DNA from: Deltaproteobacteria bacterium
GTDB taxonomy: Bacteria > Bdellovibrionota_B > Oligoflexia > Oligoflexales > Bog-1112
Assembly (NCBI GenBank): GCA_947466225.1
Contig: CANIBL010000004.1
Coordinates: forward strand, 2,408 to 66,407
Reading direction: 5' to 3'
DNA: 64,000 nucleotides
Under the pieces are notes generated by a model, which saw only the letters and a program-made list of their open reading frames with translations, was not told where the DNA came from and searched no databases. The position numbers and the translations under genes were made by a program. This document shows, one piece after another, positions 36,848-53,560 of this stretch. How positions within the stretch are numbered: position 1 is the first letter of the stretch; the number at the start of each line of letters is the position of its first letter.

Positions 36848-37359
36848 AAAGGAGGGCGTTCCCCCCTCCTTTAGATCCTCCCCCCATTTGTTTGCTGAGT
36901 AAAAGAGAGGGAGAGTTTTTCTCGAGTCAAAGACAAGGCCGGCGCGACGCTTGGCACTCCCCCCCTCTCTCGCAGATAGACCAAAATTACTTTGATTGTA
37001 CATCGGTTTCGCTCGACCCGGGTGGGTCCTCCAAGCTGCTGCCCTTGTCTTTGACTCGAGAAAAACTCTCCCTCTCTTTCAATCTCTGCCTTACGCTAGA
37101 GCCTAGTGCTTTCGAAGCGAGAGACAGGAGAATGCGAGCTCCAGTGAAGGGCAGCAGCTTGGAGGGACCCGACGGGTCGCAAATCGCAGGCCTCGAGATT
37201 GCGGTCCATGACGAGAGCAATATCTGCGATTTCGAGAGTGGGGAGGATCCGACCGTCGCGCCGGCCTTCGCTGGAGCTCGCATTCTCCTGTCTCTTACTT
37301 TGAGGCAGTGGCAAGCAAATGGGGGGAGGATCTAAAGGAGGGGGGGAACGCCCTCCTTT
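36848..37359. mobile_element. Non-autonomous MITE/REPIN-like element A (about 512 bp) with two inverted core modules
   Basis: About 48-bp terminal inverted repeats (36848-36895 / 37311-37359); internal stems 36902-36938/37043-37079 (perfect) and 37121-37150/37265-37294 (one G-T pair). Confidence 0.8.
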
Positions 37360-37376
37360 GGAAAAAGAAAAAACCA

Positions 37377-38123
37377 TCAGGTCCCATATTTACAACAAGT
37401 AAACGTATATTTTCGTATCTCATTGTTCGGATTATAGGTACTCCCCATCTTGGCTATCACTGTGTCTACAGGGCAGGTAAAGGTAAAATCTCCGCTCTCT
37501 GCTTGCGGAAAATCCTGACAGGTATCTTGTTTCACCGACAATGAGCTTCCAGCTAGATCCTTCATGCCTCGACAAATGTATTTCCACTTTCGATCATTGT
37601 GATTCTCAGGTGGAGGACCTGATTCTGTTTGGTCGATATATCGGCTGAGTGCCCCTCCCATTGCTTCTGTGCCTTTACAGTTGGAGGTTCGAAGGGTGGC
37701 ATCGGCAAACCCATTGGCATAGTCAGCATAGGCAGCGTAGACATTAAAACTGCCCCCTCGGAGGTTTTCCCATTGGCTGGTATCTGTATCTGCTCCAGCT
37801 TGAATCTGCTTTTTATTTGCATCTTGGAGAAAGCGGCAAATGAAGTAAAATTGTCGATCGTTGTGGGAAAATATTGTTTTTACCCCAGATAAAAACGAAT
37901 CTCCTGGGCAGCGGAAAATAAAAGACGCTTCCGCATCCCGCTTCGTACTGTTCGCTGTGCCTTGGACCATTTGGTTCCACGAAAGTTCCTCAACAAAATC
38001 GTTGGAAGGTCCGGAGGCATATGCAGGAAACGCATTATACGTTGCAGTGTACCCATCAGCTTGTAAAACCGAGCTATATCCAAGAAATACGCTTACGCAG
38101 ATGTATAAAAACCGGTGGTTCAC
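37377..38123 (-). CDS. Exported dermatopontin/amebocyte-aggregation-factor-like protein
   Basis: Signal peptide; three DERM-type repeats: FIFRCP...SHNDRQFYFIC, HNDRKWKYIC, FTFTCP...NEIRKYTFTCC. Confidence 0.7.
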   Translation of the reverse strand: MNHRFLYICVSVFLGYSSVLQADGYTATYNAFPAYASGPSNDFVEELSWNQMVQGTANSTKRDAEASFIFRCPGDSFLSGVKTIFSHNDRQFYFICRFLQDANKKQIQAGADTDTSQWENLRGGSFNVYAAYADYANGFADATLRTSNCKGTEAMGGALSRYIDQTESGPPPENHNDRKWKYICRGMKDLAGSSLSVKQDTCQDFPQAESGDFTFTCPVDTVIAKMGSTYNPNNEIRKYTFTCCKYGT

Positions 38124-38180
38124 AGTAGTTCTCCTGATAACGAGGATCGTACCGTCTTTTCGGTGGGTTGACGCATTTCT

Positions 38181-39380
38181 TTAGGGGGATTTTTCTTGGT
38201 AAAAGAACAAATATCCGTTCTTTTTGCTGAGTTCTAGGGCTTTCTGTTCCGTTATTTCCGAGATCACGCTGTCATTGGCTTGTAGCCATTTCCCTTCTTT
38301 TTGTAGCAATGCTACATAATGTCCGCCTCCATAGGTGCCATGATGCAGGATCACCGCATAGAGGGAAAACATCCGGGGGGCAGTATCTTGCGCGGCTTGA
38401 AGGGGTAATATGGAGGGAATTTCTACTTCTGTACTGATTTTTTTATAACCGGAATAGTCAGGTAATTGTTCAAATCGTTTCAATTGAATGAATAGATAAG
38501 CGGGTTTTTTTGCAAGAGAGAAAATTTTCAAGGATTCTGTATCTCCCTCTTTGGCCTGTGCCGTATCTTGACATTTTATGTTTTCATTGAGGTTCACCGG
38601 GATTTCTTGTTGGGATACCTCGATCAAGTTCGATAAAGAGTGACCTTTTCCTGGAATGGTAAGCGACAAAAGGTTTATAGGATCAAATTTATAGGAGACT
38701 AGATCGTGACTACGGCCGATATGGCATCGGATGATCTTTTGAGAAAATCCTTGAAAAGCATCTGTTATAAATGATTGTTCGCTGCTGCTTTGAGAATTGG
38801 CTTTTGCAATAGAAAAATCATTTTTTTCCTTATCTGTCAGTTCGCGATTTATTTTTTCTGGGTTGGTGTTGGTTGCGGAGCTAACCATATCTAAAAACTT
38901 TGAAACATACTCTTGGGCATCTTCCTGGCTGCGAACCTCATTTCGATAACCAGAAATAACGCTGGGTAAAAGATCCACAAGGGTGCCTGGGTGAACATAG
39001 GACTCTGTTGTGGTGGTATAGGCATGATAGAGACTATGAAAGGCTTCGACAACTTTTCGAACCTTGTCTTTCTCTTCGGGGAAAAACCAATGTTCGGTGA
39101 AAGTCAGTTTTTCTTGAGAAAAATACTCTGCAATGACGGGTGTATGAATCAATACTTGCAATGCGGAGTTCATAAAGCAGGTGTTGCCACAGTTTTGAAT
39201 TCCCACCACGGTCTTGGGAGCTTGTGGCTGTGGTTTTGACGGTAGTGGTTGTGGGATCGGCCCTGAGGTTGTCTCTAGTTCTTCTCGATTTGGCTCTTTC
39301 TTTATAGGCGCACACTGGAGATACAAGCCCAAAAAGCCCAAGCAGCACGCGTACCGAAGGCAAGTAAGAGATATTTTCAT
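38181..39380 (-). CDS. Ubiquitin-specific protease (peptidase C19/USP) with N-terminal export signal
   Basis: Cys box GIQNCGNTCFMNSALQVL, QEDAQE, LFIQLKRF, His box YAVILHHGTYGGGHYVA, WLQANDS. Confidence 0.92.
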   Translation of the reverse strand: MKISLTCLRYACCLGFLGLYLQCAPIKKEPNREELETTSGPIPQPLPSKPQPQAPKTVVGIQNCGNTCFMNSALQVLIHTPVIAEYFSQEKLTFTEHWFFPEEKDKVRKVVEAFHSLYHAYTTTTESYVHPGTLVDLLPSVISGYRNEVRSQEDAQEYVSKFLDMVSSATNTNPEKINRELTDKEKNDFSIAKANSQSSSEQSFITDAFQGFSQKIIRCHIGRSHDLVSYKFDPINLLSLTIPGKGHSLSNLIEVSQQEIPVNLNENIKCQDTAQAKEGDTESLKIFSLAKKPAYLFIQLKRFEQLPDYSGYKKISTEVEIPSILPLQAAQDTAPRMFSLYAVILHHGTYGGGHYVALLQKEGKWLQANDSVISEITEQKALELSKKNGYLFFYQEKSP

Positions 39381-52580: not shown

Positions 52581-52598
52581 TTCACGATACCATCACAT

Positions 52599-53261
52599 AT
52601 GGGGGTTCCGACCTTGAAGCCTCTCCTAGGAATCGGAAAATGCGTTGCTGTGTTGGCCGATTTGGTCGGCGCTTGTCTTCTCTTGCTTTATGCTGTGGTC
52701 ATGGGCCCCTTGGGGGTGCTGAGAGGTCCCCTGGTGTGGGAGCGTACCCTTTGGTACCTCTCCGTCTTTGCGCCGATGCAGATGCTCATGCGATTTGCGC
52801 GCATGGTGATCGATTGGCGCCTGGGCCACTTTGACCTTGCTATTGCACAAGGGGAAGCTTTGTTGCGTGCAGTGGAGCAGATCTATGCTACCAAGAAAGC
52901 CGACGCGCGGTATCATCGTGTTTTGCTAGATCTTTATGTTCTGCTAAGCCGAGCCTATCTCCACTCTGGCAATATCGATGCTGCCATGCAAATGGTGCTG
53001 CGTGCCAATCGCATCCTGAGTATAGATAAACTGCCGGGACTTGGCCAACTCGATGCCAAAACGTGCCACCTGGTGCGCGCCGGTCTTGCGGCGGGGCGCT
53101 TGCTGGAGGGCGGAGGGCTGACCACTCTCTTTGTGCGTACCCAGGCTAAGGCGGCTGCGCCGGCAGCTGCTGCCATGACAGACTTGCCCCCAGAGCCGGC
53201 AAAGGCCCCCACTGGCGGCGCCAAGGTGATCCCCTTTCCATCAGGGGCAAAGCCGGGGTAG
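52599..53261 (+). CDS. Hypothetical protein with a TPR-like helical region
   Basis: 220-aa ORF; LSRAYLHSGNIDAA; C-terminal KVIPFP. Confidence 0.65.
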   Translation: MGVPTLKPLLGIGKCVAVLADLVGACLLLLYAVVMGPLGVLRGPLVWERTLWYLSVFAPMQMLMRFARMVIDWRLGHFDLAIAQGEALLRAVEQIYATKKADARYHRVLLDLYVLLSRAYLHSGNIDAAMQMVLRANRILSIDKLPGLGQLDAKTCHLVRAGLAAGRLLEGGGLTTLFVRTQAKAAAPAAAAMTDLPPEPAKAPTGGAKVIPFPSGAKPG

Positions 53262-53273
53262 GTAGTTTTATAT

Positions 53274-53560
53274 ACTGGGGAACCAGCTGCGCAGTTTCCC
53301 CATACCCCTCCTTGCCTGGAGCTGGGAGAGACACGGTCTCTCAAAATCGCAGATTATACTCACGTCACGGACACTTCATTCTGTGACTGCGATTTGTGAC
53401 CCGTTGGGCCCCTTCTGTCTGGCTGCCCATGTCTTATCTCGGATTCTTTCCCACGCTTTCGTGTTCTTCTCCTCTTCGCAGGGAAGAATCCTCTTGCCAT
53501 CCCGATCTTCCAAGCCAGGCAAGGAGGGGTCAGGGGAACCTTCGCAGATGGTTCCCCTGT
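53274..53560. mobile_element. Element C, second family-B copy (287 bp; core on minus strand, truncated)
   Basis: TIRs as in element B; GGGCAGCCAGACAGAAGGGGCCCAACGGGTCACAAATCGCA is identical to 46608-46648, in reverse orientation. Confidence 0.85.

What the first reader, a model, noticed from the sequence alone, without database searches (positions are those of the whole stretch)
36848..53560. One conserved structured core carried by elements with two different terminal repeats
Seen: four core copies, at 36937-37044 (-), 37149-37266 (+), 46608-46725 (+) and about 53337-53428 (-, truncated). The consensus is GGGCAGC-stem-G(A/G)CCC-loop-GGGTC-..AAATCGCA..GTCCnTGACG(A/T)GAG..CTGCGATTT-GAGAG..GGG-stem-GCGCCGGCC. 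The first copy has a divergent middle. Each full core is closed by a 25-37 bp stem whose sequence differs between copies while pairing is kept, and G-T pairs fall on the core strand. Element A and elements B/C have unrelated TIR sequences. Inference: a modular, single-strand-folding mobile unit whose core is a functional RNA (possibly catalytic) or an HUH/RT recognition site. This goes beyond an ordinary MITE.
Basis: partly seen in the sequence, partly recalled or inferred. Interest (0 to 1): 0.78.

Follow-up and report, generated by a model that had tools for sequence, protein, structure and literature searches.

The report
Hairpin-built mobile repeat with conserved core
The four copies belong to a gene-less, hairpin-shaped repeat family scattered between genes of a few uncultured freshwater bacteria; it behaves like known selfish palindromic repeats, but its best-kept part is an internal folded core, not its ends.

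Summary
A covariance model finds all four window copies (126.5, 102.6, 71.8 and 48.8 bits). BLAST finds 35 full-length cores in this 2.1-Mb genome.

The core is a rod of three helices. On 80 distinct sequences from three genomes, 18 of 30 pairs change on both sides. A closing stem clamps each core: 32 of 38 pairs covary among 14 copies.

In this genus two diverged cores sit head to head between two inverted copies of a separate REP-like hairpin. This gives a nested palindrome of about 515 bp, with 13 full copies and 16 deletion derivatives. The window holds one full composite with a different outer hairpin, and two derivatives.

One window site is empty in the sister species. The core occurs in 3 of 131 genomes of the class. 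The hairpin occurs in 5 of 16 family genomes, so the two families are independent.

I found no Rfam match, reverse transcriptase, internal promoter or linked transposase.

Best reading: a non-autonomous, REPIN-like mobile repeat whose core acts in cis. This is a new variant of a known kind. Earlier notes of this scan reached a similar reading on other DNA.

The parts
36840..37366 (.). Element A: a full two-core composite (nested palindrome) that fills the gap between convergent genes. Its outer hairpin is of a rare type.
   Evidence: RNA fold -334.6 kcal/mol, z -21.4. ORFs end at 36836(+) and 37377(-). The sister species has a composite with normal REP ends at the same gene end.
36840..36895 (.). 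Left outer inverted repeat of element A. It holds a complete hairpin AAAGGAGGGCGTTCCCCCCTCCTTT and pairs with 37311-37366.
   Evidence: Pair I2, 56 nt, 80% complementary. A scan allowing up to 5 mismatches finds the hairpin at only 6 places in the genome (7 rows on the two strands): 2 are element A's own ends and 4 are single hairpins elsewhere.
36897..37084 (-). Left module of A: a closing stem (36897-36943 / 37038-37084) around the core 36937-37044, on the minus strand. The core is t3-like with P3 and the tip replaced.
   Evidence: Pair I3, 47 nt, 91%. Model score 48.8 bits. One relative in the genome at C22, 86% identical. Aligned with the sister species' t3 core.
37112..37303 (+). Right module of A: a closing stem (37112-37155 / 37260-37303) around the t1-type core 37149-37266.
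   Evidence: Pair I7, 44 nt, 86%. Model score 102.6 bits. It carries the G32-C88 compensatory pair in P3.
37311..37366 (.). Right outer inverted repeat of element A.
   Evidence: Pair I2.
43039..43080 (.). Single REP-like hairpin: a T-run, GGAGAACCAGCTGCGCAGTTTCGCC, then an A-run. It has the same unit as the ends of elements C and D.
   Evidence: Family D1 and pairs I13, I14. It is one of 165 hairpins in the genome at up to 4 mismatches, 75 of them single.
46464..46820 (+). Element C: a one-core derivative with REP-type ends 46471-46512 / 46778-46819, a closing stem 46565-46595 / 46739-46769 and the t2 core 46608-46725(+). A private terminator-like hairpin at about 46524-46560 stands where the t1 module would be.
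   Evidence: Pair I5 at 98% and pair I15. Fold -227 kcal/mol, z -16.8. Model score 126.5 bits. The site is empty in the sister species, where only 8 nt separate the two convergent genes.
53267..53562 (-). Element D: an internally deleted derivative with REP-type ends 53273-53319 / 53515-53561 and a truncated t2 core at 53338-53428(-).
   Evidence: Pair I6, 47 nt, 87%. BLAST covers core positions 1-90. Model score 71.8 bits. The sister species has no element after the orthologous gene, though only one flank is syntenic.
49880..49904 (.). Single hairpin of the same rare type as element A's ends, inside its own longer palindrome 49869-49915.
   Evidence: Family D9 (92%) and pair I24.

Best explanation
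The copies belong to a lineage-restricted family of gene-less intergenic repeats built from hairpins.

The basic unit is a module. It has a rod-like core of about 118 nt with three helices (P1, P2, P3) separated by conserved purine-rich internal loops. The 5' end reads GGGCAGC and the 3' end GCGCCGGCC. A closing stem of 12-38 bp clamps the core; its sequence is free but its pairing is kept.

In this genus two diverged modules (t1 and t2), always with their 5' ends facing, lie between two inverted copies of an unrelated REP-like hairpin (GGGGAACCAGCTGCGCAGTTTCCCC, with a T-run before and an A-run after). This nested palindrome of about 515 bp is the unit that was amplified. Shorter copies are its deletion products.

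Shown: the anatomy, the copy numbers, the covariation, a presence/absence difference between species, and the separate distributions of core and hairpin.

Inferred: the element is selfish, non-autonomous mobile DNA of the REPIN kind, copied through a folded single strand by an enzyme acting in trans. Also inferred: the core's basal helices and loops are the cis-acting structure that has to survive for a copy to spread, while the stems only have to pair. The enzyme is not identified.
For: 1. Copy number and build. There are 58 BLAST loci, 35 of them full cores. There are 29 elements bounded by inverted REP-type hairpins: 13 of full size (494-506 nt between the hairpins) and 16 shorter ones with internal deletions or fused cores. 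All 12 alignable pairs are t1 plus t2, head to head. All 13 full pairs in the sister species are head to head as well.

2. Core structure. On 67 sequences, 92.9% of cells pair, against 24-47% when the partner is slid, and 14 of 30 pairs change on both sides. With a second genus added (80 distinct sequences), 18 of 30 pairs do, in 320 cells. P1 has four different sequences at the same columns.

3. Stems. 32 of 38 pairs change on both sides among 14 copies. In the second genus, 8 modules have perfect stems of 12-22 bp that share little beyond AAGAGG/CCTCTT.

4. Graded conservation inside 12 composites. Pairwise identity is 0.93-0.95 for the basal core, 0.81-0.83 for the ends, 0.60-0.63 for the t1 stems and 0.51 for the linkers.

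5. Mobility and location. Element C's site is empty in the sister species with synteny on both sides. All 30 elements are intergenic: 10 tandem, 8 divergent, 8 convergent, 3 inside spurious ORFs and 1 at a contig edge.

6. No sign of a gene. No sigma-70-like promoter or intrinsic terminator lies inside the element in 2 of 3 composites scanned; the third has one terminator-like match inside a core, no more than its shuffles give (mean 1.0). The one promoter-like hit is in a flank. No Rfam family reaches its threshold.

7. Precedent. Compensatory changes in REPIN hairpin spacers are described as common (PMC3116915, passages read).
Against: No mobilising enzyme was found. The genome's single Y1 gene is IS200-type (149 bits on NF033573; 22.8 on the RAYT model, cut-off 80). 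Its IS shows no similarity to the core. Only one hairpin lies nearby, after the broken tnpB.

The RAYT-like genes of the sister species are flanked by other palindromes. Four Y1 loci in three relatives lack the hairpin within 1.5 kb.

No target-site duplication could be read from 12 aligned composites or from the one empty site.

One window site (A) is occupied in both species, so part of the family is old and resident.

The strand bias in the core rests on few independent events, and the stems show none. The assembly is 92.8% complete, so a partner gene may simply be missing.
Confidence: 0.55

Rival explanations
1. The core is a functional structured RNA. Read-through transcripts from neighbouring genes would fold, the long perfect closing stem would serve as a processing stalk for a double-strand RNase, and a stable core of about 120 nt that binds a protein would be released. 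Because the two cores face each other, a transcript from either side carries one core in sense.
For: Helices covary while purine-rich internal loops stay constant. Wobble pairs fixed in whole subfamilies are G-T on the sense strand only: 12-108 in 33 sequences, 22-98 in 14 and 24-96 in 11. In 56 of 64 modules the sense strand folds better. The head-to-head order is kept in 12 of 12 and 13 of 13 pairs. The basal core is better kept than the ends.
Against: No promoter-like site lies inside any of the 3 composites scanned. There are 35 or more copies per 2-Mb genome. The stems show no excess of G-U over A-C (140 to 121), and 47 of 110 double changes in the t1 stems are of transversion type, which cannot pass through a wobble pair. 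In the second genus the sense strand runs against the neighbouring genes in 6 of 6 contexts that are not convergent, so read-through would give the antisense core. No Rfam family matches.
Confidence: 0.2
2. The element is a plain DNA palindrome with no single-strand function. On this reading the arms stay complementary because one arm is copied over the other (template switching or conversion inside the palindrome), and the core looks conserved because copies spread recently and are homogenised.
For: The stems show no strand bias. Transversion-type double changes are frequent, 47 of 110. Fused cores and deletion products show that the palindrome recombines.
Against: The core keeps non-palindromic internal loops and covarying helices across two genera whose stems are no longer alignable. 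Each species has its own subfamilies. Core orientation inside the composites never varies, in 12 of 12 and 13 of 13 pairs, which free flipping would scramble. Ordinary intergenic DNA of the two species does not align at all, whereas the cores are 70-81% identical.
Confidence: 0.15
3. The core is a self-cleaving ribozyme, or a fragment of a known element such as a group II intron, a retron RNA, or the guide RNA of TnpB/IscB.
For: Only the general look of a compact conserved fold with invariant unpaired purines.
Against: No match among 4227 Rfam families at gathering scores over the whole window. In E-value searches of two elements the best E-values were 0.096 and 0.11, at 12-19 bits against gathering scores of 51-95. 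There is no RVT_1 match in the genome. The only TnpB is broken and its IS shares nothing but the nearby hairpin. The fold is a plain rod with no branch point.
Confidence: 0.04

Closest known systems
[quoted passage not shown]
   Same: Like these, it has short imperfect hairpins in high copy between genes: 165 in 2.1 Mb, of which 90 sit in inverted-doublet context and 75 stand alone. Two inverted hairpins enclose a spacer and the whole folds into one long hairpin. Compensatory changes keep the spacer paired, a behaviour described for REPINs (PMC3116915, passages read). The single hairpins look like remnants. Mosaic combination with other motifs recalls BIMEs (recalled, plus the abstract of PMC2817692 in the listing).
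   Different: The spacer is about 400 nt instead of a few tens, and holds two structured cores that are better kept than the REP units themselves. I read no GTAG or CGTC tag at the hairpin foot in the sequences; that criterion comes from the abstract of PMC3733652 in the listing. No RAYT flanked by these hairpins was found in any of the genomes checked. The core also occurs without the hairpins in another genus.
Bacterial MITEs that fold as long RNA or DNA hairpins (Correia/NEMIS, ERIC, RUP, BOX; recalled, reviewed in PMC10969869 and PMC2229807, listing only)
   Same: It is small, non-coding, has terminal inverted repeats, lies between genes, occurs in many copies with deletion derivatives, and differs in presence between related genomes.
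   Different: No insertion sequence with matching ends was found and no target duplication could be read. The inverted repeats that clamp the core differ from copy to copy, so they cannot be a sequence-specific transposase site.
IS200/IS605 ends and their gene-less derivatives, moved as single strands by a Y1 HUH transposase
   Same: It shares imperfect hairpins with conserved mismatches: C-T and A-A mismatches are kept and one loop-proximal pair covaries. It also shares function on a folded single strand. One such hairpin lies about 80 nt after the broken tnpB of the genome's only IS605-like element.
   Different: The other end of that IS carries a different hairpin. Its interior has no similarity to the core. 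Composites show no orientation bias against GC skew (6 to 6).
Integron attC sites
   Same: The structure, not the stem sequence, is conserved, and one strand is favoured.
   Different: Here a 118-nt sequence-conserved core sits in the hairpin. The copies are dispersed and not in cassette arrays. No attC-type R/L boxes are seen. This comparison is recalled and was not tested with a model.

Membership tests
REPIN-RAYT system | Short palindromic units in high copy, extragenic | tested here: met
   165 hairpins at up to 4 mismatches. At up to 2 mismatches there are 120, against 0 for the reversed control. All 30 elements are intergenic.
REPIN-RAYT system | Inverted doublets whose spacer folds into a hairpin kept by compensatory changes | tested here: met
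   29 inverted doublets. Folds have z -16.8 and -21.4. 32 of 38 stem pairs covary.
REPIN-RAYT system | GTAG or CGTC tag at one end of the REP unit | tested here: not met
   The foot reads TTTTTACTGGGG...CCCCAGTAAAAA in the 165 copies listed, and I read no GTAG or CGTC there. The RAYT-flanking palindromes of the sister species do carry GTAG.
REPIN-RAYT system | A single-copy RAYT gene flanked by the same REP units | tested here: not met
   The own genome has only an IS200-type TnpA (22.8 bits on the RAYT model, cut-off 80). Three RAYT-like genes of the sister species (70-79 bits) and one of the second genus have no such hairpin in their loci. The assembly is 92.8% complete, so absence is not proven.
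MITE | Terminal inverted repeats, small size, no coding capacity | tested here: met
   Ends of 42-56 nt, 80-98% complementary. Elements span 164-527 bp. ORFs across them exist only as spurious frames.
MITE | Target-site duplication | tested here: inconclusive
   No direct repeat is seen at the ends of 12 aligned composites. The one empty site cannot be aligned base for base.
MITE | A parent insertion sequence with the same ends | tested here: not met
   Y1, TnpB, IS110, DDE_Tnp_1 and RVT_1 were searched in the genome. The IS5-like end has no such repeat. Other transposase families were not searched.
MITE | Presence/absence between related genomes | tested here: met
   Element C is absent from the syntenic site of the sister species. 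Element D is probably absent, with only one flank syntenic. Element A's site is occupied in both.
Known RNA family or ribozyme (Rfam 15) | Score at or above the family's gathering threshold | tested here: not met
   0 matches over the window. The weak matches reach 12-19 bits against gathering scores of 51-95.
TnpB/IscB guide RNA or IS605 end | Sequence continuity with the 3' end of a tnpB/iscB gene | tested here: not met
   BLAST of 12 composites against the IS605-like locus matches the hairpin only.

The most novel reading that the evidence does not exclude
The 118-nt core with its clamp would be a self-standing replicator: a strand-specific folded module, as single-stranded DNA or as RNA, recognised by shape and by its purine loops by an enzyme not yet identified and unrelated to RAYT. 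It would be able to ride inside other palindromic repeats. It occurs alone in one genus and is packed in pairs inside REP doublets in another. The orientation bias seen in the genus where it stands alone (against the neighbouring genes in 6 of 6 non-convergent contexts) would then reflect a link to replication or transcription.
Probability: 0.3. Interest if true: 0.75.

Novelty: new variant of a known kind. Interest (0 to 1): 0.5.

Why it matters
REP, REPIN and MITE repeats are usually read as "ends that matter, middle that does not". This family has the reverse pattern. Across two genera it keeps an internal fold better than its ends, and lets the clamping stems change freely as long as they pair.

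If the core is the cis-acting part, it points to a structure-reading mobilisation or maintenance machinery that is not the known RAYT route. It would also give a compact, well-defined substrate to fish for that machinery.

If the family is only a selfish palindrome, it is still a clean natural data set. Dozens of paralogous stems with independent double changes allow selection on pairing to be told from arm-to-arm copying.

It also matters for annotation. These elements break assemblies: many copies lie at contig ends. They also create long spurious ORFs.

Tried and rejected
- Rfam. A gathering search of the whole window and E-value searches of two elements gave nothing usable.
- Similarity of the composite to the genome's IS605-like element. 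Only the hairpin matched.
- RVT_1 and IS110 searches of the genome gave none. The IS5-like DDE remnants have unrelated ends.
- Public collections. The genome contigs pattern hit 3 stretches, all in one MAG record, which is the sister genome G001. The metagenome contigs pattern gave 0 stretches. A looser pattern in viral contigs gave 22 stretches, none real by the model (best 15.8 bits, E 0.06).
- RNA evidence. No RNA holder was listed for the window stretch (after an unanswered first try). This says nothing on expression.
- Laying contigs of four DNA runs. The contigs break at the repeats, and the joints are cross-matches between copies with short sides. One run's contig leaves the window sequence at 36843, the edge of element A, and goes on with unlike letters. 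That fits the synteny break seen in the sister species but does not define an empty site.
- A consistent fold for the apical region (columns 43-78). None was found and the energies are weak. The motif GTCC(A/T)TGACG is kept in one genus only.
- Orientation against GC skew. Composites split 6 to 6. Single-core elements of the sister species are mixed.
- The idea that the stems are host palindromes split by insertion. Rejected, because the stems of one subfamily are alignable with each other at about 60% identity.
- A first count of wobble versus A-C pairs in the stems (209 to 51) was biased by the folding step. The symmetric control replaced it.
- A MAFFT alignment of the filled and empty site was unusable and was replaced by reading the sequences.

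
Full report
**What is in the window**

- Element A (36840-37366) is a nested palindrome. It has outer arms of 56 nt at 80% complementarity. Inside are two hairpins, each a stem of 44-47 nt around a core: 36937-37044 on the minus strand and 37149-37266 on the plus strand.
- Element C (46464-46820) has different outer arms (42 nt, 98%), one stem and one core (46608-46725, plus strand).
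- Element D (53267-53562) has the same kind of arms as C and a truncated core.
- As RNA, A and C fold at -334.6 and -227 kcal/mol, with z-scores of -21.4 and -16.8 against shuffles.
- A covariance model built later finds all four copies at 126.5, 102.6, 71.8 and 48.8 bits.

**The family in the genome**

- BLAST with two cores gives 58 loci, 35 of them full length.
- The cores fall into two subtypes, t1 and t2, that differ wholesale in helix P1.
- Twelve pairs are t1 plus t2, head to head and about 93 nt apart.
- The outer arms of C and D contain a complete imperfect hairpin, GGGGAACCAGCTGCGCAGTTTCCCC, preceded by a T-run.
- That hairpin occurs 165 times at up to 4 mismatches. In 90 cases it is followed by CCTCCTTGC (the doublet form) and in 75 it stands alone with an A-run after it. 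One pair next to its loop covaries (G-C, C-G or A-T), while a C-T and an A-A mismatch are kept.
- Pairing inverted hairpins gives 29 bounded elements. Thirteen are of full size (494-506 nt between the hairpins). Sixteen are shorter, with deletions or with the two cores fused at P3.
- The amplified unit is therefore the composite of about 515 bp. C and D are its derivatives. A is a composite with another outer hairpin, which has only four single relatives in the genome.

**The fold of the core**

RNAalifold on 34 copies proposed a rod. I fixed 30 pairs in four helices: a 3-pair basal helix next to the closing stem, then P1, P2 and P3.
- On 67 cores from this genome and the sister species, 92.9% of cells pair, against 24-47% when the partner is slid. 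Fourteen pairs change on both sides, in 223 cells.
- P1 has four unrelated sequences in the same columns: GATCGG/CCGATC, CAGACAGAA/TTCTGTCTG, CAGGTAGA/TCTGCCTG and CGCTTGGGG/CCCCGAGCG.
- P2 grows to 7 pairs in one subtype. This settles it against a local hairpin that would use the same bases.
- A third genome of another genus adds G-C for A-U at two P3 pairs and a further P1. With it, 18 of 30 pairs change on both sides, in 320 cells. That alignment was fitted to the model and so leans towards it.
- These are changes between a handful of subfamilies, not dozens of independent events.
- Between the helices lie constant, purine-rich internal loops (GGGG against AAGA, GGG against GA), plus the ends GGGCAGC and GCGCCGGCC.
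- The tip (columns 43-78) has no common fold. Its motif GTCC(A/T)TGACG is kept in one genus only. In two copies, one of them the window's first copy, P3 and the tip are replaced altogether.

**The closing stems**

Among 14 t1 modules the 38 stem pairs are 95.7% paired, against 40-50% when slid, and 32 pairs change on both sides.
- Of 110 double changes, 47 are of transversion type.
- In the other genus the eight stems are perfect, 12-22 bp long, and share little beyond AAGAGG/CCTCTT.
- In the sister species core subtypes and stem types are combined freely.

**Which strand folds**

- In the core, G-T pairs outnumber A-C by 79 to 32.
- Whole modules are more stable in sense in 56 of 64 cases.
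- In the stems a symmetric test gives 140 G-U in sense and 121 in antisense, so there is no bias.

**Conservation along the element**

In 12 aligned composites the mean pairwise identity is 0.93-0.95 for the basal core, 0.81-0.83 for the ends and 0.81-0.82 for the t2 stems. It is 0.60-0.63 for the t1 stems, 0.61 for the t1 tip and 0.51 for the linkers. The core, not the termini, is the most constrained part.

**Distribution**

- BLAST finds the core in 2 of 31 related genomes.
- The model finds it in 3 of 95 genomes of the order and 3 of 131 of the class. All three are in one family: G000, G001 and G009.
- An exact pattern finds only the sister genome among the representative genomes, and nothing in the metagenome contigs.
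- The hairpin has a wider and different spread. It occurs in 5 of 16 family genomes: 120, 127, 96, 15 and 411 copies at up to 2 mismatches. The reversed control gives 0.
- Two of those genomes have no core. In G009 the eight cores stand alone in their stems, with no hairpin beside them.
- Core module and hairpin are therefore independent families that were joined in one genus.

**Mobility and context**

- The gene before element A is followed by a composite in the sister species too, there with normal hairpin ends.
- Element C's site is empty in the sister species. The two convergent genes are separated by 8 nt there.
- After the ortholog of the gene before D there is no element, but the downstream neighbour differs.
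- All 30 elements lie between genes: 10 tandem, 8 divergent, 8 convergent, 3 inside spurious ORFs and 1 at a contig edge. The genome background is 1102, 317 and 328. They fill the gaps to within 4-124 nt of the ORFs where the neighbouring ORF call is sound.

**Search for a partner**

- The genome has one Y1 gene. It is an IS200-type TnpA (149 bits on NF033573; 22.8 on the RAYT model, below the cut-off of 80). It lies next to a tnpB that is split in two frames.
- A hairpin of the family lies about 80 nt after tnpB. The other end of that IS has a different hairpin, and the IS shares nothing else with the composites.
- There is no RVT_1 and no IS110 transposase. The IS5-like remnants have unrelated ends.
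- The sister species has three RAYT-like genes (70-79 bits), flanked by other, GTAG-bearing palindromes.
- Four Y1 loci in G012, G009 and G011 have no hairpin within 1.5 kb.
- No enzyme can be named.

**Signs of a gene**

No sigma-70-like promoter lies inside any of the three composites scanned. Two of them hold no intrinsic terminator either. The third has one terminator-like match inside a core, no more than its shuffles give. The one promoter-like hit lies in a flank. Rfam gives nothing.

**Reading**

The anatomy matches the REPIN/BIME kind of selfish palindromic repeat, for which compensatory changes in the hairpin spacer are described (PMC3116915, passages read). It fails two defining tests of that family: the GTAG/CGTC tag and a flanking RAYT. 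It also differs in carrying a large, better-conserved structured core that exists on its own elsewhere.

I therefore file it as working like a REPIN, not as a member. I take the core to be the cis-acting structure that a copy needs to spread (confidence 0.55). The rivals are a processed structured RNA (0.2), a plain DNA palindrome kept by arm-to-arm copying (0.15), and a ribozyme or fragment of a known element (0.04).

**An unexplained lead**

In G009 the sense strand of the core runs against the neighbouring genes in 6 of 6 contexts that are not convergent. It lies on the strand of negative GC skew in 7 of 8, three of those with very weak skew. Composites here split 6 to 6, and single-core elements of the sister species are mixed.

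**Earlier notes of this scan**

Three earlier notes describe the same family: e1-2172931 on another piece of this genome, and e1-4943115 and e1-3519192 on another genome. They read it as REP/REPIN-like. I reached the same class from my own calls. I did not test their claim that the palindrome flips between strains.

Noticed in passing
G000 contig 16, 38.8-40.7 kb (L030:142-1950): The genome's only IS200/IS605-type element. It has an intact 138-aa TnpA on the minus strand and a TnpB split into two frames (226 and 166 aa). Different hairpins sit at its two ends, and the one after tnpB belongs to the 165-copy family.
   Followed up: partly
G000 contig 42, 13712-14012; L055:200-290 (G001): A second hairpin repeat (GCCGCCTCGGCC... 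and ...TTCAGGCGCTGGGGAT) resembles the hairpin at the tnpA-side end of the IS605-like element. It is found nested inside one composite, and also at the sister-species site that corresponds to the window's single hairpin at 43039.
   Followed up: no
L092:1215-1340 and 1985-2070; L095:1163-1245 and 1977-2087 (G001): RAYT-like genes of the sister species are flanked on both sides by perfect palindromes of 75-85 bp that carry GTAG. Their inner hairpin (GGAGGGGGGA/TCCCCCCTCC) resembles the rare outer hairpin of element A.
   Followed up: partly
G012 (same family, other genus): This genome holds 411 copies of the hairpin motif at up to 2 mismatches, many of them exact and some in tandem about 52 nt apart. 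It has no core by the model and no hairpin beside its two best Y1 genes.
   Followed up: partly
G009 loci L102-L109: The solitary core modules point against the neighbouring genes in 6 of 6 non-convergent contexts, and lie on the negative-skew strand in 7 of 8.
   Followed up: partly
window 46524-46560: Element C carries a private stem-loop followed by TTTTCT (AAAGAGCCGGAT...ATCCGGCTCTTTT) where the t1 module would be. It looks like an intrinsic terminator for the upstream gene and is not shared with other copies, whose BLAST matches start after it.
   Followed up: no
G000 contig 16, 20127-20409; contig 32, 14274-14563: In these two elements the inverted cores are fused at helix P3 into one long perfect hairpin. 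They are products of deletion across the palindrome.
   Followed up: no
L057 (G001 contig 10, next to the composite at the element-A site): A (GAAAAA)n microsatellite directly follows the element.
   Followed up: no
window 48367-48395: A 29-nt stretch is 83% like the 3' end of the core (GCGCCGGCC region) and lies inside an ORF (48071-48859). It is probably chance.
   Followed up: no
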